The position numbers were made by a program, and so were the translations under genes. A stretch of DNA of 64,000 bases from a candidate division WWE3 bacterium GW2011_GWC2_41_23 (GTDB lineage: Bacteria; Patescibacteriota; WWE3; UBA101185; UBA10185), in contig LCBB01000002.1 of NCBI GenBank assembly GCA_000996895.1, positions 27,596-91,595 of the forward strand. The letters are read 5' to 3'. Shown here piece by piece: positions 1,871-41,367 of this stretch; the stretch's first letter is position 1, and each line of letters starts with the position of its first letter. Under the pieces are notes generated by a model. That model was not told the origin of the DNA and did not search any database. It was given only the letters and a program-made list of their open reading frames with translations.

Positions 1871-2919
1871 CCCTCCCTACTCAACTCCGCACTTTTAAAG
1901 TAGCGGCCCACACGCCCTGTCCCATAAACCCACAAAGTGATCCAACAAGCGGCGGGATGAAAAAACCAGGCAGTATCAAATTTTTTAAATAATCCTGCAA
2001 TCATTTGCACAAGTAAAGGTACCACCAATACGCAAGACAAAACAAACTTTACCATTCCCCACGGATTTTTCCCGCTCAAGTCCATATCTCCCCAACTAAA
2101 TTCGCGGTCTTTCTTCTCATTTAAATGAAAAAGGTAGTCTTTCACACGCCTCTTTTGTTTCCTTGCAAACTTTCCGATATCACTTCCGCAGAAATTATGA
2201 ATTATTCCGTTTTTTACTTTAATAAATTTAACCGAGCCCTTGTCCTTTATTTCCTTCGCCAAGATATCAATATCGAACAAATAGTCGCCTGTTACCCTGC
2301 TTTTTAAAAACTCAGTTCGGAAAACAGTTCCGTTTGCCCCAATTGTAGGTACTCCCCGTCGGTCCAAGCCCAAAAGCAAGTAGCCGCCCATGTCTTCTTC
2401 TTCGTGCTCCACTTCCGTCCACTTGCCGGTTAGTAAATTCACCCTATCGTAGTTGCCTAAAAACATTACAAACGGATCGTTCATACCGATTAACGCACAA
2501 TATCTGTCTATAAATCCGTTTTCTTTTCTCCAAATATATTTCCACGGCTCGCTTCCTACCGCTTCAACGTGTTTCAACAAAGGCTCAATCATCTGACCCA
2601 ACCATCCGCTGTCCGGCAAAATATTATCTGAGTCTATTAACACCGCGAAATCCCCCGTGCAGGCCTTCAATGCTGCCGCTTTACCTGCCTCTCCGGTCTT
2701 TAATTTGTTTTGTACAACAACCGCCCCATATTCCTTAGCTAATTCAACCGTTCCGTCAGCAGAACCGCCGTCAGCTACTACTATTTCGATTTTTTCTTTG
2801 GGGTAGTTCTGATTATTTATTGATTCCAAGCAATTCTTTAACACCGAAACGGCATTAAGTGTGGGTATCAGTATGGATATTGTAGGGGTTTCGGACAAAT
2901 CTTCTGGCTGATTTTCCAT
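1858..2919 (-). CDS. glycosyltransferase family 2
   Basis: N-terminal ISILIPTLNAVSVLKNCLESINNQNYPKEKIEIVVADGGSADGT (GT-A fold) and a DSDN DxD-type motif. Overlaps the upstream MTase by 13 nt, so they are co-transcribed. Confidence 0.8.
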   Translation of the reverse strand: MENQPEDLSETPTISILIPTLNAVSVLKNCLESINNQNYPKEKIEIVVADGGSADGTVELAKEYGAVVVQNKLKTGEAGKAAALKACTGDFAVLIDSDNILPDSGWLGQMIEPLLKHVEAVGSEPWKYIWRKENGFIDRYCALIGMNDPFVMFLGNYDRVNLLTGKWTEVEHEEEDMGGYLLLGLDRRGVPTIGANGTVFRTEFLKSRVTGDYLFDIDILAKEIKDKGSVKFIKVKNGIIHNFCGSDIGKFARKQKRRVKDYLFHLNEKKDREFSWGDMDLSGKNPWGMVKFVLSCVLVVPLLVQMIAGLFKKFDTAWFFHPAACWITLWVYGTGRVGRYFKSAELSREGWGQ

Positions 2920-2962
2920 TTGTATATTGTACTACAACAGCGTTCTCCCGAGCTCCCGAAAA

Positions 2963-3610
2963 CTAAGCGGATTTTTGGGCTTTGGCTACTACTGTCTGAC
3001 TTAAAAATGACAAAAATTTAGGCGGCCTAACAACCCTATACTTAACCGTAACCGGATGGTACAAACCCAGCCAGAAATTCTCTATATCAACCCTGCCAAA
3101 CTTAGATTTACTATATAAATTTTCTAAGGATCCCTTTGTATATTCTCTTAAGTGAACGCAATCTCCAAGCACATCGGTTGTACCCAAAAACATGGGAAAA
3201 ACCGGAAACTTACCGGTAGCAATTGTCCTGACCCAGCGTCCTACTCTGAACAAATTCGGTGTGAATACATAAGCAACTCCTCCGGGTTTTAACACTCTGT
3301 ACATCTCGTTAATAAAATTCAGGTCATTTTCTACGTGCTCTAAAACGTCAAAATTTGTAATTATATCGAAGGAATTATCAGTAAAACTTAATTTATCCTT
3401 TTCAATGATATTAAACGGAAATTTACTTTTGTTCTCAGGTTTTCTTGCATCTGCAATGTCGCAGCCTATTACGTCGGCTCCACGTTTGCAAAGTTCGTAA
3501 GTTGTGTCACCGCCTCCGCAGCCAATATCCAAAACTTTCTTGTCTTTGAAATCTATCTTGTCCAAAAATTTGAGGAAATCCAAGAAATAATAATCGGTCT
3601 TCATTTCCAT
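2963..3610 (-). CDS. class I SAM-dependent methyltransferase
   Basis: VLDIGCGGGDTT motif I and FDIITNFDVLEHV. Confidence 0.8.
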   Translation of the reverse strand: MEMKTDYYFLDFLKFLDKIDFKDKKVLDIGCGGGDTTYELCKRGADVIGCDIADARKPENKSKFPFNIIEKDKLSFTDNSFDIITNFDVLEHVENDLNFINEMYRVLKPGGVAYVFTPNLFRVGRWVRTIATGKFPVFPMFLGTTDVLGDCVHLREYTKGSLENLYSKSKFGRVDIENFWLGLYHPVTVKYRVVRPPKFLSFLSQTVVAKAQKSA

Positions 3611-3648
3611 TTTTCTATTGTACTACAACCTAAACAAGCTAAGCCCGA

Positions 3649-3677
3649 TTTACTATCATAACCGATTTTGATATACT
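3649..3677 (+). promoter_or_regulatory. sigma70-like promoter P1 (TTTACT-N17-TATACT) for the small-ORF pair
   Basis: -35 TTTACT at 3649-3654, 17-nt spacer, -10 TATACT at 3672-3677. About 30 nt upstream of the SD and ATG at 3712. Confidence 0.45.
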
Positions 3678-3711
3678 ACAGGCATAAAAATCGGAGTGAA
3701 AGGGAGGGCGA

Positions 3712-3951
3712 ATGTACGATTTTTTCTTTTTCACGGTAGAGGGGTTTTCTACTGCACTGGAAAGGCTACGCAGGAGCGACAAAAGCTGGTACCACTGCTC
3801 CGAAAAGCTCCTCATCAGTTTTTATGAGGGATGCGACGCTGATTTCCTGGTGGGAGAACTTGCACTACTGGGAGTAGGCAGCGGAGCATACAAACTAGAA
3901 CGACCGGACAGGAAGAAGGGAGGAACCGAACAAAGCTCGCGCACGTGTTGA
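3712..3951 (+). CDS. hypothetical small protein (79 aa), islet orf1
   Basis: Near-consensus SD AGGGAGGG three nt before the ATG. Begins MYDFFFF. GC-richer than the flanks. No recognisable family. Confidence 0.5.
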   Translation: MYDFFFFTVEGFSTALERLRRSDKSWYHCSEKLLISFYEGCDADFLVGELALLGVGSGAYKLERPDRKKGGTEQSSRTC

Positions 3952-4004
3952 ACAACACATCTCTTTATCAGATAGCTAAACGGCACAGAAAGGCAAGGGA
4001 GGAT

Positions 4005-4226
4005 ATGTACATATTTTTTTGTTCGCCTGATGATTTGAGCAGAGCAATGCGGATTGGCGAAAAAATGCACGTGTTTGAAAGTCAGCATTATACTGTAGAC
4101 GCGGAAAAAAACCGGATAACCTTTGACAGCGCGTATCCGGAAAAAGTCCATATGTTTATAGCGGCTATCAAGCACGCTAATTCCTGCCCTGACAAACAAC
4201 CCATCTGCTTTAATATCGCACGCTAG
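4005..4226 (+). CDS. hypothetical small protein (73 aa), islet orf2
   Basis: Start moved to the internal ATG at 4005 because AGGGAGG lies 3-4 nt upstream. Begins MYIFFC, the same MY + Phe-rich start as orf1. Cys-containing C-terminus. The tool ORF 3945..4226 starts at a GTG with no SD. Confidence 0.5.
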   Translation: MYIFFCSPDDLSRAMRIGEKMHVFESQHYTVDAEKNRITFDSAYPEKVHMFIAAIKHANSCPDKQPICFNIAR

Positions 4227-4250
4227 GTTATTTTTAACCGACAGAACATA

Positions 4251-4289
4251 AGCCCGTTGTTTTTACCAAAACACAACGGGCTTTTTTTA
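4251..4289 (+). terminator. intrinsic terminator after orf2
   Basis: AGCCCGTTGT (4251-4260) pairs with ACAACGGGCT (4273-4282), followed by TTTTTTT. Confidence 0.75.
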
Positions 4290-4325
4290 TTAAACCGTGT
4301 CCTCTTTTTGGCATATACGGCTGAT

Positions 4326-4354
4326 TTGAAAACACAGCCTTATGCTGTTAGAAT
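4326..4354 (+). promoter_or_regulatory. sigma70-like promoter P2 (TTGAAA-N17-TAGAAT)
   Basis: -35 TTGAAA at 4326-4331, 17-nt spacer, -10 TAGAAT at 4349-4354. Predicted start near 4361, giving a leader of about 185 nt before orfA. Confidence 0.6.
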
Positions 4355-4545
4355 CCCATACACAAAGATAAATCCGTAAAAAAGGAGAGAAAATTATGGG
4401 CAGACACGTGAGGCGGGGTTGAGGTAAACCTGTCTTCATAAGTTGGAAAAAAGACGGTAATCAGACTGCATCTCAGAAACCAAATACAAAGGAATACTTT
4501 CCGGCGAATCCGAGGCGAGCTAACCAAACCTAAAAAGGGACTGAC

Positions 4546-4773
4546 GTGATAATTTTTATGTCTTACGATAACGCGTTGGCAGCAAGCAAACAAGTGGTCG
4601 GGCTACTCAGAACCGAGGGGTACAAAATTGAGTATCTTAAAGTTGAAATTGTCAAAAACAAAAACGGATTTTTCATTGAAGCTTCATCTGAGATGGATCC
4701 GTTGATGGCGGGCCGGTTCAGGCACCTTCTTAAGGAATACACGAAAACGTACCGAAAATACATCTCAATCTGA
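4546..4773 (+). CDS. hypothetical small protein (75 aa), islet orfA
   Basis: GTG start 6 nt after AAAAAGGGA. Alternative ATG at 4558. No family recognised. Confidence 0.5.
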   Translation: MIIFMSYDNALAASKQVVGLLRTEGYKIEYLKVEIVKNKNGFFIEASSEMDPLMAGRFRHLLKEYTKTYRKYISI

Positions 4774-4782
4774 GGAGGGGAA

Positions 4783-5076
4783 ATGTTATACAGGCTCGGT
4801 AACCTGGGAAAAGGTACGGTAGCATACGCTTCACCGAAGGCTCTTGTGTGCCATACAGGAAGGTTGTACATAAACTTTAACGTAAAGGTGACGCTGGGCT
4901 ACGACTCTGTGGGAGACAGAACTATGCGTGTTACTATGCTCGGAAAAGGAGTGCTCGTAACTCTGTGCACCATACCGAAAGGTTTCAACATACCTGTTTT
5001 GGACAGGTGGGTAATCTTGGGCACGAACTTTAGACCTGTCAAACTTGAGAAAATCGTGCGAACTAACTGCAACTAG
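4783..5076 (+). CDS. hypothetical small protein (97 aa), islet orfB; paralog of orfC
   Basis: SD GAGGAGGGG before the ATG. Shares RLYINFN / KLYINLN and GVLVTLCTIP / GVLVNMSTLP with orfC. Confidence 0.6.
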   Translation: MLYRLGNLGKGTVAYASPKALVCHTGRLYINFNVKVTLGYDSVGDRTMRVTMLGKGVLVTLCTIPKGFNIPVLDRWVILGTNFRPVKLEKIVRTNCN

Positions 5077-5088
5077 AAAGGAAGAGAA

Positions 5089-5388
5089 ATGATAAAGCTC
5101 AGGGAATTACCAGTTAACGCAAGGGTATTTGTTTCGCCGGGCGCGTTTATCAAATTTGAGGAGAAGTTGTACATAAATCTTAACTCTCAGATAAACGCGG
5201 TTTGTGATCCTTCGCGATACTTTACCGTAGAGGTCACAAGGCAGGAACAGGGGGTTTTGGTAAATATGAGCACCTTACCCGAACCACTCCTCGCACTGGA
5301 AATTGTCGACAAAATCTTTAAGAGAATAATCGACGACCATTTCCATCCAATTACCTTGGAAGGGTATAGGTTATTCGATACGTGCTAG
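5089..5388 (+). CDS. hypothetical small protein (99 aa), islet orfC; paralog of orfB
   Basis: SD AAGGAAGAG before the ATG. Tandem to orfB with a 12-nt spacer. Confidence 0.6.
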   Translation: MIKLRELPVNARVFVSPGAFIKFEEKLYINLNSQINAVCDPSRYFTVEVTRQEQGVLVNMSTLPEPLLALEIVDKIFKRIIDDHFHPITLEGYRLFDTC

Positions 5389-5403
5389 CGCTCAAAGCCA
5401 CGG

Positions 5404-5445
5404 TGTTTACTAAAATAAACTCGTGGCTTTTTTGTAATCAAATGC
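5404..5445 (+). terminator. intrinsic terminator after orfC
   Basis: AAAGCCACG (5404-5412) pairs with CGTGGCTTT (5432-5440), followed by TTTTG. Loop is 19 nt. Confidence 0.65.
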
Positions 5446-5466: not shown

Positions 5467-7077
5467 TTATTCTTTCTTAGCTGCTGCACCCGCAAACATA
5501 CTTTTTAATGCACTTCCCCAAAACTTAGGAGACAACCAATTTACCTTTGTCTGCTCCTTATCAAAGTCCAATAGATGGCCTAATAGTTTCCAGGCTGAGT
5601 AACCTAAAAATTTGACGTCACTCCAATTTCTTACCGAAAGTACTTTTCTTAAAATGTACTGAGGTGTGAAAAATGAAGAATAAAGTGATTGGGTTAATTC
5701 GTACAAACGTTCGTTTGAAAACGGTATTTTCATAACAGGCGCTCTCATATCAAACTTTTCATAGTCCTTTGCCCCGACCTGCAACCAATCTTTCTCCACA
5801 CACTCCTTATATAAAGGAGTCCCGGGATACGGTATTACGATTGTAGCCTGCATGGTGTCAACGTAGCCCCTTTTAAAGAGATCTTTGGCCAAGTCTATGG
5901 TCTTTTGAGCCATTTCCTCGGTTTCCCAGGGGTAGCCTAACATAACGGTTACGTGGGGCTCCAAACCTGCCTTTTTAGCTATTCTGGCGCCTTCTGCAAT
6001 CTCTTCTACCTGCAGTCCTTTATCCAACTTGTCCAAAGTAAACTGATTCGCCGATTCCATTCCATACAAAATAAATCTGAAATTGGCTTTGCCCATGAGT
6101 TCGTAATACTCGGAAGTTAAAGCGTTTAATCTCATGTTGCAGCCAAACACAACTTTCTTGCTGTAACCGGACTCTATCAGAAGTTCGCAGAACTTTTTCA
6201 ACGGCGGGCCGATAAATAAAGTTCCCGCATCATCAAAAATTTCTTTGACGCCGTAGTTGTCGACAACATGTTTAACTTCGGCAAAAAGCCTTTCGGGGGA
6301 AAATCTTCTATAGAAACCTTGTGGATTTAAAGTGTGATCCCAAACACAAAAAGTGCATCTATTCCACCAACAATCTCTTCCTGAATACATGTAAGTTGCA
6401 GGCGTATATTTATAATTTCCGTTCGCGTATGCGTAAAGTTTCCATTTTGTTAAGTCCCGGTCTACAAACGGAAGGTCATCTAAATTATGTTGCAGTTCTA
6501 AAGGTCCGCTCTGCCAGTATTCTTCTTCACCGGAAATTTCTGATTTATGCATTTTCAACCACTTGGGATCTACGGATACTTTTGTATCCCCTTTTCTACC
6601 GTAAACTCCCCCGGGTAAGTAGCTGTGGCTACTTATGGCTTCAACGGTATCGCTCAAAAGAAAATCGTAATCGCCTCCCGTTATTATGTAATCAACTTTG
6701 CAGGCGTCTAATGTTTCTACGGGGTTCCAGGTAACGTGGTCACCGACCAAAATAACTACCATATTGGGGAACTTCTCTTTGATATCATCTATTATTTTCC
6801 AGTGAAATTTCAAGACAGGAGCTTTGGTCTCCATCATAAGATAATCGGGCTGTTCTCTTTCAAGATCTGCAAGCCATTCCGTGTAGGTTTTCTTCTCCGC
6901 GATGCCGTCCATCCACACCACATCATATCCTCGTTCTTTAGCTAGTGACGCAGCATAAGCCGGAACCATGGGATAAATGTATGTGGGAGCATTAAAGTAC
7001 TGGAACTGTCTGTTCTGGGATAATAATGGCACTCCCTTGTACTGATCTATTGGAGGATACCCTATTGCAATTTTCAT
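5467..7077 (-). CDS. B12-binding-domain radical SAM protein (class B rSAM-like)
   Basis: N-terminal Rossmann-like region (IAIGYPP...VVWMDG) followed by a cysteine triad DCWWNRCTFC, which is Cx4Cx2C rather than the canonical Cx3Cx2C. TIM-barrel-length C-terminal part. Confidence 0.65.
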   Translation of the reverse strand: MKIAIGYPPIDQYKGVPLLSQNRQFQYFNAPTYIYPMVPAYAASLAKERGYDVVWMDGIAEKKTYTEWLADLEREQPDYLMMETKAPVLKFHWKIIDDIKEKFPNMVVILVGDHVTWNPVETLDACKVDYIITGGDYDFLLSDTVEAISSHSYLPGGVYGRKGDTKVSVDPKWLKMHKSEISGEEEYWQSGPLELQHNLDDLPFVDRDLTKWKLYAYANGNYKYTPATYMYSGRDCWWNRCTFCVWDHTLNPQGFYRRFSPERLFAEVKHVVDNYGVKEIFDDAGTLFIGPPLKKFCELLIESGYSKKVVFGCNMRLNALTSEYYELMGKANFRFILYGMESANQFTLDKLDKGLQVEEIAEGARIAKKAGLEPHVTVMLGYPWETEEMAQKTIDLAKDLFKRGYVDTMQATIVIPYPGTPLYKECVEKDWLQVGAKDYEKFDMRAPVMKIPFSNERLYELTQSLYSSFFTPQYILRKVLSVRNWSDVKFLGYSAWKLLGHLLDFDKEQTKVNWLSPKFWGSALKSMFAGAAAKKE

Positions 7078-40188: not shown

Positions 40189-41367
40189 TTATGCTGTTAC
40201 TTTAGAGATAACTCCTGCTCCTACAGTATGTCCGCCTTCTCTTATAGCGAATCTCATACCATCTTCGAGTGCCACCGGTGTAATGAGTTTAACTTTCATG
40301 TTTACTTTATCTCCGGGCATTACCATCTCGACACCTTCGGGGAGAACAATCTCACCCGTAACGTCAGTGGTTCTGATATAAAACTGTGGCCTGTATCCGC
40401 TGAAGAAAGGTTTCTGTCTTCCGCCCTCTTCCTTGGATAATATGTAAACCTCAGCATCGAAATCTGTGTGGGGCTTGGTGCTGCCGGGCTTGGCCAACAC
40501 TTGTCCTCTTTCCACATCGGTTCTCTCAATACCTCTAAGAAGGATACCTACGTTGTCTCCTGCGAGACCTTCCTGCATCTGCTTCTTAAACATTTCTACT
40601 CCGGTAACTACTGATTTCTTTGTATCCTTAATACCTACGATTTCGACTTCTTCGTTTATCTTTATCTTGCCTCTCTCGATTCTTCCCGTAACGACAGTTC
40701 CTCTTCCTGAGATTGTGAATACGTCTTCAACGGGCATTAAGAAAGGCTTGTCTAGCTCTCTGACAGGAGTGGGTATAAATGTATCAACTGCCTCCATAAG
40801 TTCCTCGATGCTTTTTATGGCGTCAGCGTCACCTTCCAGAGCTTTCATTGCGGATCCTTTGATTATCGGTGTGGTGTCTCCGGGGAAGCCGTACTTGGTC
40901 AATAATTCTCTTACTTCGAGCTCGACGAGATCAAGAATCTCTTTGTCCTGAACCATGTCTGTCTTGTTCATGAAGACGACCATAGCAGGAACGTTAACTT
41001 GCTTCGCTAACAAGATATGCTCTCTTGTTTGAGGCATTGGTCCGTCAGGAGCTGAGACCACGAGTATGGCTCCGTCCATCTGGGCGGCACCTGTGATCAT
41101 ATTCTTGATGTAGTCCGCATGTCCGGGTGCATCTATGTGGGCGTAGTGCCTCTTATCGGTCTCGTACTCGACGTGAGTAATATTGATCGTGATACCTCGG
41201 GCTCTCTCTTCGGGAGCCTTATCGATATTCTCGTAGCTAATGTATTGCGCCTGACCTTTTCCGGCAAGCACTTTAGTGATAGCTGCGGTTAATGTGGTTT
41301 TTCCATGGTCAACGTGACCAATGGTACCTATGTTTACGTGTTCTTTATTTCTTATAAATTCGGCCAT
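40189..41367 (-). CDS. tuf: elongation factor Tu
   Basis: [18 protein letters not shown] and NKTD GTPase motifs. Confidence 0.98.

What the first reader, a model, noticed from the sequence alone, without database searches (positions are those of the whole stretch)
3649..5445. GC-richer islet of five small unannotatable ORFs in two self-contained mini-operons inside the glycan locus
A 1.8-kb plus-strand insert sits between two minus-strand glycan-modification genes, the MTase starting at 3610 and the B12-rSAM gene ending at 5467. It is visibly GC-richer than its AT-rich neighbours. It contains two mini-operons. In the first, P1 (TTTACT-N17-TATACT) drives two ORFs of 79 and 73 aa. Both begin MY followed by a Phe-rich stretch, both have a near-perfect AGGGAGG SD 3-4 nt from the ATG, and a hairpin + T7 terminator follows. 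In the second, P2 (TTGAAA-N17-TAGAAT) is followed by a leader of about 185 nt and three ORFs of 75, 97 and 99 aa with GAGGAGGGG and AAGGAAGAG SDs, ending in a terminator. I cannot assign any of the five proteins to a family. The complete promoter-SD-terminator signal set argues that they are expressed genes. Their placement next to an rSAM/ferredoxin pair and methyltransferases suggests a small accessory module. Possibilities are RiPP-like substrate peptides, a toxin/immunity or defence pair, or a glycan-associated regulator.
Basis: seen in the sequence. Interest (0 to 1): 0.72.

Follow-up and report, generated by a model that had tools for sequence, protein, structure and literature searches.

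The report
Fast-evolving orphan small-protein locus in WWE3
The five small genes are real and conserved, but only within one narrow group of WWE3 (candidate-phyla) bacteria, where they diverge far faster than their neighbours, match no known protein family, and have no demonstrated function.

Summary
Five plus-strand ORFs sit between the methyltransferase and the B12-radical-SAM gene, with two promoters, strong ribosome-binding sites and two hairpin terminators.

They are genuine genes: dN/dS is 0.12-0.23 and orthologues occupy the same site in at least 10 related WWE3 genomes. They are not strain-private, and nothing marks them as mobile.

More distant relatives have an empty site, with the radical-SAM gene abutting the next gene. 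The block is therefore an old insertion into a sugar-chain (glycan) operon.

- **Lost gene:** the "185-nt leader" is the stump of a sixth gene, X, which relatives keep.
- **Families:** O4, O5 and X form one beta-rich family. O2 is predicted ferredoxin-like. O1 shows only weak similarity to O2. O3 is a separate family.
- **Homology:** nothing in Pfam, NCBIfam, PHROGs, PADLOC or PDB. The only structural matches are uncharacterised phage proteins.
- **Rate:** flanking genes are 73-94% identical between genomes, block proteins 28-79%, with mosaic patterns and persistently raised GC3.

RiPP substrates are effectively excluded. My best guess, at low confidence, is a non-enzymatic accessory or conflict module. 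Interest is moderate.

The parts
3649..3677 (+). Promoter P1 (TTTACT-N17-TATACT, TG-extended -10). It lies in the divergent intergenic region between the methyltransferase gene and O1.
   Evidence: Found by the scan. The same -35/-10 pair is conserved upstream of the first block gene in L005, L035, L009, L006 and L089.
3712..3951 (+). O1, family A, 79 aa. Acidic, with a basic tail. The structure model is poor.
   Evidence: Orthologues are 28-73% identical. dN/dS is 0.12-0.17. pLDDT is 36-63 in the fused model. Similarity to family B is weak (hhalign E = 0.014 over 51 columns).
4005..4226 (+). O2, family B, 73 aa. Predicted beta-alpha-beta-beta-alpha-beta (ferredoxin-like) mini-domain. This is the most widely retained member of the block.
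   Evidence: pLDDT is 87-98. Only generic ferredoxin-fold PDB matches, E >= 0.07. Orthologues are present in 9 genomes or contigs. dN/dS is 0.16-0.18. The ATG at 4005 is supported by the conserved AGGGAGG and by orthologue starts.
4250..4290 (+). Intrinsic terminator T1 (hairpin 4250-4283 plus U7), ending the O1-O2 operon.
   Evidence: -18.4 kcal/mol, z = -3.5. Conserved at 84-95% nucleotide identity in L004, L005, L006 and L035.
4326..4354 (+). Promoter P2 (TTGAAA-N17-TAGAAT, TG-extended).
   Evidence: 10/12 matches. Conserved in L004, L005, L006, L035 and L089.
4361..4545 (+). Remnant of the lost sixth gene X. The 5' UTR, the ribosome-binding site AAGGAGAG (4382-4389) and the ATG (4396) are kept. 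The reading frame stops after 8 codons (4396-4422, MGRHVRRG*). The rest of the gene is deleted or decayed.
   Evidence: Alignment with the intact X genes (87-127 aa) of L004, L005, L006 and L035. blastn identity of 79-87% runs from upstream of P2 to the start codon and then ends. No Rfam match.
4546..4773 (+). O3, family C, 75 aa from GTG 4546. Basic (pI 9.4). Predicted alpha-beta-beta-alpha domain.
   Evidence: pLDDT is 84-96. The GTG aligns with the ATG of orthologues and has an AAGGG ribosome-binding site. The family has 18 invariant positions. Found only in the closest genomes.
4783..5076 (+). O4, family D/X (D4 branch), 97 aa, strongly basic (pI 10.1).
   Evidence: Paralogue of O5. hhalign D4 against D5 gives probability 98.9%. 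Orthologues are 35-53% identical.
5089..5388 (+). O5, family D/X (D5 branch), 99 aa. Beta-rich fold with a C-terminal helix. In every relative it is the last gene, next to the 3' end of the radical-SAM gene.
5394..5436 (+). Intrinsic terminator T2 (hairpin 5394-5430 plus U6), ending the O3-O5 operon.
   Evidence: -17.4 kcal/mol, z = -4.4. Conserved in 6 genomes, with a compensatory GCCACG/CGTGGC to GCCGCG/CGCGGC change.

Best explanation
**What it is (shown).** The window comes from candidate division WWE3 bacterium GW2011_GWF2_41_45. The block is a lineage-restricted locus of small soluble proteins that was inserted, in an ancestor of one WWE3 subclade, into a conserved cell-surface glycan operon. 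It lies immediately after the HpnJ-like B12 radical-SAM gene, on the opposite strand. It has stayed at that site ever since.

- Its fullest form is A-B | X-C-D4-D5, with P1, T1, P2 and T2.
- More distant members carry B-X-D or A-(Y-B fusion)-X-D with no detectable gap.
- This genome has lost X.
- The genes fall into orphan families: the beta-rich D/X family (O4, O5, lost X), the ferredoxin-like B (O2) with a weak link to A (O1), and C (O3).
- They are under purifying selection but diverge 3-10 times faster than their neighbours.
- They show duplication, fusion, gene loss, incongruent similarity patterns between the two halves, and persistently raised GC3.

**How it most likely works (inferred, low confidence).** No protein has a detectable catalytic, DNA-binding, membrane or secretion feature. 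I therefore expect them to act by binding, either to each other or to a changing partner.

The pattern of variation, the position in the variable spot of a surface-glycan locus, and the only structural relatives being small early-region phage proteins together point to a conflict or accessory role. Examples would be phage exclusion or immunity-like neutralisation, as opposed to glycan chemistry.
For: **Real genes.**
- dN/dS is 0.12-0.23.
- The annotated frame is the best of six for all five ORFs.
- Family alignments show conserved hydrophobic cores.
- O2 and O3 give confident AlphaFold2 models.

**Fixed position.**
- Every member recovered lies convergent with the radical-SAM gene.
- Empty sites: the radical-SAM gene sits 15-130 nt from the GT353 homologue in L011, L012, L013, L029, L032, L034 and L067. 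In L010 it sits 5 nt from the next same-strand gene.

**Narrow distribution.**
- The D/X profile finds 12 true members among 1.84 billion representative proteins.
- The word-indexed searches return only WWE3-type proteins.

**Fast, mosaic evolution.**
- The radical-SAM protein is 88-93% identical among six genomes, against A 28-73%, B 39-79%, X 31-63%, C 49-70%, D4 35-53% and D5 41-70%.
- A and B group the window with L004 and L006. D5 groups it with L089 and L006.

**Gene turnover.**
- An extra A'-Y-B' set in L006.
- A Y-B fusion in L084.
- Loss of X in the window.
- D duplicated.

**Composition.** GC3 is raised in all lineages: 0.50-0.54 against 0.37-0.46 in five of six relatives, and 0.43 against 0.40 in L007.

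**Phage link.** The O5 model matches three phage proteins. One is Clavibacter phage CN1A gp69, which lies among small early genes and belongs to phrog_34264, of unknown function.

**Signals.** Promoters and terminators are conserved.
Against: - There is no functional evidence of any kind. No known defence, toxin, immunity or regulator family is detected.
- Stable synteny over a clade in which the radical-SAM protein has diverged to 80% identity is unusual for defence or conflict genes, which normally move.
- dN/dS is well below 1, so positive selection is not demonstrated. Fast divergence could simply reflect weak constraint on small proteins.
- The phage link is structural only. TM is about 0.6 against a model of pLDDT 72, and the sequence score is 8 bits.
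- Strict linkage to the radical-SAM/ferredoxin/glycosyltransferase module equally fits a role in that pathway.
- Raised GC3 could reflect high expression. C-ending two-fold codons are 0.59 in the block, against 0.64 in the gene at 40189-41367, which I take to be EF-Tu from its N-terminus.
Confidence: 0.35

Rival explanations
1. Pathway accessory or regulator. The small ferredoxin-fold proteins (ACT/PII/RRM-like) and D/X proteins bind the radical-SAM enzyme, ferredoxin, methyltransferase or glycosyltransferases, or their mRNA or a metabolite, and tune the surface-glycan pathway in this subclade.
For: - Every copy of the block found is next to the radical-SAM/ferredoxin/glycosyltransferase module.
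- O2 has the fold used by many small ligand- or RNA-binding regulators.
- O3 and O4 are basic.
- Separate promoters would allow independent control.
Against: - The glycan module is conserved in 80 loci across WWE3, Roizmanbacteria and Microgenomates. Only the closest WWE3 relatives carry the block.
- All occurrences belong to one narrow clade, so the linkage may be pure inheritance.
- Partners of a radical-SAM protein that stays about 90% identical would not be expected to diverge to 30-50% identity.
- The block is convergent with the operon, not co-transcribed with it.
Confidence: 0.22
2. Toxin-antitoxin or addiction-type modules. O1-O2 form a pair, and O3-O4-O5 form a second set with a chaperone or antitoxin.
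For: - Small adjacent genes with a strong promoter.
- The A-(Y)-B unit is duplicated as a block in L006.
- O4 (+9.6) and O5 (-2.3) carry opposite charges.
- Gene decay and copy-number change.
Against: - No hit to any toxin or antitoxin family in Pfam, NCBIfam or PADLOC.
- No HTH, RHH or AbrB-type DNA-binding domain was detected.
- O1 and O2 are 49-77 nt apart in most genomes, each with its own ribosome-binding site.
- The chromosomal site is fixed, with no sporadic distribution.
- Distant members carry the genes as one B-X-D run.
Confidence: 0.1
3. Relic cargo of an old phage or mobile element, now drifting with little or no function.
For: - It is an insertion relative to the empty sites.
- Codon usage is atypical.
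- The fold is shared with phage proteins.
- One gene is already lost.
Against: - Purifying selection acts on all five genes.
- Promoters, ribosome-binding sites and terminators are conserved, with compensatory changes, although synonymous sites are saturated.
- No tRNA in the window and no flanking repeats.
- No PHROG hits.
- GC3 elevation has been maintained and has not drifted back toward the genome average.
Confidence: 0.1
4. RiPP-like precursor peptides modified by the adjacent B12 radical-SAM enzyme.
For: Small ORFs lie next to a B12 radical-SAM enzyme and a ferredoxin. Weak RiPP-type radical-SAM family hits exist (ApyD 63 bits, rSAM_ocin_1 45 bits).
Against: - The enzyme occurs in 80 fetched loci, of which only the closest carry these ORFs.
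- The orientation is convergent.
- The enzyme's best match is HpnJ, a sugar/lipid-type enzyme (152 bits), and it sits in a glycosyltransferase / PMT_2 / Polysacc_synt operon.
- O2 and O3 fold into compact domains (pLDDT 84-98).
- Conservation spreads over the whole length, with no leader/core split.
- No PqqD-like recognition element was detected.
Confidence: 0.03

Closest known systems
Flexible (hypervariable) islets inside cell-surface glycan loci, as described for O-antigen and capsule loci under the phage-predation 'constant diversity' view.
   Same: - It sits in the variable spot of a glycan operon. The neighbouring gene is also swapped: a methyltransferase here and in L004 and L088-L090, a 143-146 aa membrane protein in others, and different genes in L008.
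- Alleles are mosaic, gene content varies, and composition is atypical.
   Different: - The variable genes are not glycan enzymes. They are tiny orphan proteins on the opposite strand with their own promoters and terminators.
- The gene set is inherited in place and is not replaced wholesale.
Small early-region phage proteins of unknown function: Clavibacter phage CN1A gp69 (phrog_34264), a Rhodococcus phage Weasels2 131-aa protein, and A0A6G5YFK0.
   Same: - They share the predicted fold of O5, over nearly the full length for CN1A gp69 (Foldseek probability 1.0, TM 0.57-0.65).
- Size is similar.
- There is a faint shared N-terminal motif (L..l..G..vyi...a.v....LyvN; 8 bits, P about 1e-4).
   Different: - No significant sequence homology: PHROG scan and tblastn are negative.
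- The function of the phage proteins is itself unknown.
- The WWE3 genes are chromosomal and stably inherited.
Stand-alone ferredoxin-fold (beta-alpha-beta-beta-alpha-beta) small proteins: ACT, PII/GlnB, RRM, Cas2/VapD, protease propeptides.
   Same: O2 is confidently predicted with this topology at about 70 aa. O1 shows weak profile similarity to O2 in the same register.
   Different: - Only generic, non-significant structural matches (best E = 0.07).
- No family motif and no sequence match to any of these families.
Type II toxin-antitoxin operons
   Same: Pairs of small genes behind a strong promoter, duplicated as a unit in one relative, with evidence of turnover.
   Different: No family match, no DNA-binding antitoxin domain detected, separate ribosome-binding sites with 49-77 nt spacers, and a fixed site in the genome.
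RiPP clusters with B12 radical-SAM methyltransferases
   Same: Small ORFs are adjacent to a B12 radical-SAM enzyme and a ferredoxin.
   Different: The ORFs are dispensable for the enzyme across the fetched loci, convergent with it, and encode folded domains. The enzyme is HpnJ-like and lies within a glycan operon.

Membership tests
RiPP precursor / radical-SAM maturase cluster | The precursor has a conserved leader and a short, variable core, and is not a globular domain. | tested here: not met
   O2 and O3 are modelled as compact domains with pLDDT 84-98. Conservation is spread along the whole length.
RiPP precursor / radical-SAM maturase cluster | Precursor and maturase co-occur across genomes and are co-oriented. 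| tested here: not met
   The radical-SAM gene is present in 80 loci. The block was found in only seven of them (L004-L007, L009, L035) counting the closest set, and it is always convergent.
RiPP precursor / radical-SAM maturase cluster | The maturase belongs to a RiPP radical-SAM family, or a PqqD-like recognition element is present. | tested here: not met
   Best NCBIfam match is HpnJ at 152 bits. RiPP families score 45-63 bits. All are below their cut-offs. No PqqD hit.
Type II toxin-antitoxin system | Homology of at least one partner to a known toxin or antitoxin family, or an antitoxin DNA-binding domain (HTH, RHH, AbrB). | tested here: not met
   Pfam, NCBIfam and PADLOC are negative. 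The best is AbiEi at E = 0.023, 12.5 bits. PDB profile searches are negative.
Type II toxin-antitoxin system | Toxicity of one gene, neutralised by its neighbour. | not testable with these tools
   This requires expression experiments.
Known anti-phage defence systems (PADLOC-DB 2.0) | A match to a model of a described defence protein. | tested here: not met
   Only chance-level hits, E >= 0.018 and about 12 bits.
Prophage / integrative mobile element | A tRNA target, flanking direct repeats, or phage gene families. | tested here: not met
   No tRNA in the 64 kb. No flanking repeats. No PHROG hits. No tblastn match in phage or plasmid collections. The block sits at the same site in all relatives.
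Cis-regulatory leader RNA / riboswitch (for 4361-4545) | A match to an RNA family, or a conserved structured leader. | tested here: not met
   Rfam finds nothing at gathering or E-value thresholds. In relatives the region is occupied by an intact 87-127 aa gene.
Ferredoxin-like (beta-alpha-beta-beta-alpha-beta) fold class. This is a fold, not a family. | Four-stranded sheet with two helices in beta-alpha-beta-beta-alpha-beta order. | tested here: met
   In the fused model O2 occupies residues 155-227: strands at 155-159, 183-186, 191-194 and 223-226, and helices at 162-174 and 199-213, with pLDDT 87-98. The top PDB matches are all of this fold. This holds for O2 only. The O1 model is unreliable.
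D/X orphan family (defined in this analysis) | About 90-100 aa, the motif L..LP.n..vfvSPgA.v...g.LYiN.n, and a position as last gene or genes next to the 3' end of the radical-SAM gene. | tested here: met
   O4 against O5: hhalign probability 98.9%. X against D: probability 91%, E = 1e-6. The library holds 12 true members.

The most novel reading that the evidence does not exclude
The locus is a previously undescribed, non-enzymatic conflict system specific to WWE3 (Katanobacteria). It would be built from two new protein folds or families: mini ferredoxin-like A/B(/Y) proteins and beta-rich D/X proteins related to phage early proteins. Under this reading, alleles are kept diverse by recombination and frequency-dependent selection, for example to block phages or to mediate host-episymbiont recognition, and the module operates alongside the variable surface glycan.
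Probability: 0.2. Interest if true: 0.7.

Novelty: new variant of a known kind. Interest (0 to 1): 0.42.

Why it matters
Candidate-phyla bacteria have tiny genomes, largely lack the well-known phage-defence systems, and carry many genes of unknown function.

This locus is a clean, well-delimited example:
- three to six small genes with textbook expression signals;
- retained for a long time at one site inside a conserved surface-glycan operon;
- diverging several-fold faster than everything around it;
- matching no known family.

If the proteins prove to mediate phage resistance or host interaction, they would add a new type of small-protein system and two new folds. If they regulate the HpnJ-like radical-SAM glycan pathway, they would give a handle on an uncharacterised and widespread glycan modification in these bacteria.

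As it stands, this is a well-documented orphan locus, not a discovery of mechanism.

Tried and rejected
- **Family scans.** Pfam, PHROGs, PADLOC and NCBIfam on all five proteins, plus X, the Y-B fusion and the extra L009 protein, gave nothing significant.
- **Phage and plasmid collections.** tblastn of the concatenated proteins found no match.
- **PDB by sequence.** Profile searches for families A, B, C and D found nothing.
- **AFDB50.** The library was unavailable.
- **Fused alignments for structure prediction.** I worked around this with a fused window sequence plus individual homologue rows. The O1 part still modelled poorly.
- **Deep profile search.** One extra hit, a 2018-aa eukaryotic mucin-like protein (P0037, E = 4e-4), was rejected as a repeat-driven artefact.
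- **Are A, B and C one superfamily?** A against B is only suggestive (E = 0.014). C against A or B shows no signal. The idea is left open.
- **RNA element in the 'leader'.** Rejected.
- **Mobile-element signatures.** None found.
- **Shared operator.** A possible GATTT...AAATC inverted repeat around P1 and P2 was inspected by eye. It is too weakly conserved to claim.
- **Literature.** Searches found no description of this locus.
- **3' remnant of gene X.** MAFFT suggests one, but blastn and tblastn find no significant match. Only the 5' remnant is claimed as shown.
Full report
**Source and observation**

The window is from candidate division WWE3 bacterium GW2011_GWF2_41_45.

| ORF | Coordinates | Length |
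|---|---|---|
| O1 | 3712-3951 | 79 aa |
| O2 | 4005-4226 | 73 aa |
| O3 | 4546-4773 | 75 aa (GTG start) |
| O4 | 4783-5076 | 97 aa |
| O5 | 5089-5388 | 99 aa |

They lie between a minus-strand class-I methyltransferase (2963-3610) and a minus-strand B12-binding radical-SAM gene (5467-7077), which is followed by a ferredoxin gene.

Both promoters are picked up by the consensus scan:
- P1: 3649-3677, 9/12 matches.
- P2: 4326-4354, 10/12 matches.
- Both have a TG-extended -10.
- The number of promoter-like sites in the region is no higher than chance.

The terminator scan missed both hairpins. Folding shows they are strong and followed by U-tracts:
- T1: 4250-4283 plus U7, -18.4 kcal/mol, z = -3.5.
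- T2: 5394-5430 plus U6, -17.4 kcal/mol, z = -4.4.

The GC excess is real but small and confined to third codon positions:
- The block is 43.7% GC against 41.4% for the window (z = 1.5).
- Pooled GC3 is 0.525, above all 44 large genes of the window (0.419 +/- 0.033, maximum 0.493).
- Tetranucleotide composition is ordinary.

**Are they genes?**

Yes, on four counts:
- The annotated frame has the best codon score of all six frames for each ORF, although the scores are below those of the large genes.
- Orthologues exist.
- Nei-Gojobori dN/dS against them is 0.12-0.23 wherever dS is not saturated.
- The family alignments show conserved hydrophobic cores, and family C has 18 invariant positions.

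**Distribution**

A scan of one genome per species with the radical-SAM protein returned 80 loci from WWE3, Roizmanbacteria, Microgenomates and related bins. tblastn and family HMMs find the small proteins only in the closest WWE3 genomes:
- L004 (RIFOXYD1_FULL_43_17)
- L005 (RAAC2_WWE3_1, a complete genome)
- L006 (RIFOXYB1_FULL_43_24)
- L035 (RIFOXYC2_FULL_42_13)
- partly in L007 (KatS3mg101) and L009

In every case they occupy the same place: after the 3' end of the radical-SAM gene, on the opposite strand. Further contigs found through the protein databases (L084-L093) show the same arrangement without exception.

In relatives whose radical-SAM protein is 65-76% identical, that gene sits 15-130 nt from the GT353 homologue (L011, L012, L013, L029, L032, L034, L067). 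In L010 (78%) it sits 5 nt from the next same-strand gene.

The block is therefore an insertion that split a co-directional glycan operon in the ancestor of one subclade, and it has been inherited in place since. Nothing marks it as a recent mobile element: the 64 kb contains no tRNA, there are no flanking repeats, and there are no phage or plasmid matches.

**Anatomy across genomes**

The fullest form (L004, L005, L006, L089) is P1 - A - B - T1 - P2 - X - C - D4 - D5 - T2.

- **Conserved signals.** T1, P2, the 5' UTR and the ribosome-binding site are conserved at 79-95% nucleotide identity, although synonymous sites of the genes are saturated. P1 is conserved in five further genomes. T2 shows a compensatory stem change.
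- **The 185-nt 'leader' is a decayed gene.** In the window, P2, the UTR, the AAGGAGAG ribosome-binding site and the ATG (4396) of gene X are kept. The frame stops after eight codons (MGRHVRRG*), and about 120 nt of unalignable sequence replace the 87-127-codon gene of relatives. Rfam finds nothing there.
- **O3 start.** The same alignment supports the GTG at 4546, which aligns with the ATG of orthologues (MKHFLSY...).
- **Distant members.** They carry B-X-D (L007, L087) or A-(Y-B fusion)-X-D (L084) with no detectable gap. The T1/P2 split is therefore derived, and the genes probably work together.
- **Other variants.** L006 has an extra A'-Y-B' set. L035 lacks D4. L008 has unrelated, larger opposite-strand ORFs at the same spot.

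**Families and folds**

*D/X family (O4, O5, lost X).*
- O4 and O5 are paralogues (29% identity; hhalign probability 98.9%).
- With enlarged alignments, X joins them (probability 91%, E = 1e-6 over 84 columns).
- A profile of this family, scored against all 1.84 billion representative proteins, finds 12 true members, all 70-102 aa. One further hit, a eukaryotic mucin-like repeat protein, is spurious.
- AlphaFold2 gives O5 a beta-rich fold with a C-terminal helix (pLDDT 72, pTM 0.63).
- Foldseek against viral models finds three matches with probability 1.0 and TM 0.57-0.65.
- One match is Clavibacter phage CN1A gp69, a 95-aa protein among small early-region genes, in phrog_34264 of unknown function. 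The family HMM scores it only 8 bits. This is a fold resemblance with a hint of homology, not a demonstrated relationship.

*O1, O2 and O3.* A fused-chain model gave the following:
- O2: pLDDT 87-98, a beta-alpha-beta-beta-alpha-beta ferredoxin-like mini-domain.
- O3: pLDDT 84-96, alpha-beta-beta-alpha.
- O1: pLDDT 36-63, a poor model.

PDB matches for O2 are generic and non-significant: RRM, PII, papillomavirus E2 DNA-binding domain, a protease propeptide, all at E >= 0.07. O1 aligns weakly with O2 in the same structural register (E = 0.014). O3 shows no detectable link to either.

No family matches any Pfam, NCBIfam, PHROG, PADLOC or PDB sequence profile.

**Evolutionary behaviour**

Identity among six genomes:

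| Protein | Identity |
|---|---|
| Radical-SAM | 88-93% |
| Ferredoxin | 87-94% |
| GT337 | 73-91% |
| A | 28-73% |
| B | 39-79% |
| X | 31-63% |
| C | 49-70% |
| D4 | 35-53% |
| D5 | 41-70% |

- **Incongruent patterns.** A and B group the window with L004 and L006 and leave L089 far away. D5 groups the window with L089 and L006 and leaves L004 far away. The two halves of the block therefore have different histories, which points to recombination between alleles.
- **Persistent GC3 elevation.** GC3 of the block genes exceeds that of flanking genes in the relatives too: 0.50-0.54 against 0.37-0.46 in five of six, and 0.43 against 0.40 in L007. It is a maintained property, not a fading trace of foreign origin. 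It would fit high expression: C-ending two-fold codons are 0.59 in the block, against 0.64 in the gene at 40189-41367, which I take to be EF-Tu from its N-terminus. It would also fit recombination-associated GC bias.

**Interpretation**

*Shown:*
- a clade-restricted, stably positioned locus of small soluble proteins with expression signals;
- orphan families;
- purifying but weak constraint;
- turnover by duplication, fusion and loss;
- mosaic alleles.

*Excluded or very unlikely:*
- **RiPP substrates.** The enzyme is HpnJ-like (152 bits, against 45-63 bits for RiPP families). It sits in a glycosyltransferase / PMT_2 / Polysacc_synt operon and occurs without the block in most of the 80 loci. 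The ORFs are convergent with it and encode folded domains.
- **A riboswitch leader.**
- **A recent mobile insert.**

*Not excluded:* a regulator of the glycan pathway, a toxin-antitoxin-like pair, or a drifting relic.

*My commitment (about 0.35):* these are non-enzymatic binding proteins forming a self-contained accessory or conflict module. Four things support this:
- the fast, mosaic divergence;
- the gene-content turnover;
- the location in the variable spot of a surface-glycan locus;
- the fact that the only structural relatives are small early phage proteins.

Every functional step of that statement is inference.

**Verdict**

Its suggested functions are mostly unsupported, and one feature, the 'leader', was misread. 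The finding is a well-delimited orphan locus of moderate interest. It is novel as protein families and ordinary as a genomic phenomenon.

Noticed in passing
window 2913-2938 and 3604-3629: A 26-nt direct repeat (92% identical) covers the start codon and upstream region of both GT353 (start 2919) and the methyltransferase MT215 (start 3610). MT215 is present only in the window, L004 and L088-L090. Other relatives carry a 143-146 aa membrane protein (MYLLLTEMGHL...) there instead. The duplicated junction looks like the scar of the methyltransferase insertion or swap.
   Followed up: partly
L008:11591-14658 (CAZTDP010000009.1): A relative whose radical-SAM protein is 80% identical carries four unrelated, larger opposite-strand ORFs (145-212 aa, strong ribosome-binding sites) at the same spot, on both sides of the membrane-protein gene. 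The site may be a general landing place for orphan genes.
   Followed up: partly
L084:5250-5687 and L006 (gap-region coordinates 755-979): There is a further small family, 'Y' (about 74 aa). It is free-standing in L006 and fused to the N-terminus of a B-family domain in L084 (145 aa). This fusion suggests that Y and B act together.
   Followed up: partly
L090:2675-4260: In one groundwater contig the radical-SAM gene next to the block is called as two pieces (93 aa and 435 aa). This is a possible frameshift, pseudogene or assembly error.
   Followed up: no
window 4863-4881 and 5166-5184: O4 and O5 share a 19-nt stretch at 89% nucleotide identity over the LYIN motif, although the proteins are only 29% identical overall. 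This may be local gene conversion or strong constraint.
   Followed up: no
window 3645-3695 and 4322-4377: Both promoters are bracketed by short GATTT...AAATC inverted elements: CCGATTT twice and AAATCGG around P1, and TGATTT and AAATCCG around P2. They are only loosely conserved in relatives. This could be an operator or a coincidence of AT-rich promoter sequence (seen by eye).
   Followed up: partly
window 1-64000: No tRNA gene and no Rfam match at gathering thresholds in the whole 64 kb. 40 of the 44 non-overlapping large ORFs are on the minus strand, which makes the plus-strand block stand out.
   Followed up: no
P0037: A 2018-aa eukaryotic mucin-like protein with tandem repeats reached E = 4e-4 against the D/X profile through six repeat matches (..SLYVNGY..). 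I judged it a false positive. It is a reminder that repeat proteins inflate scores for short profiles.
   Followed up: yes
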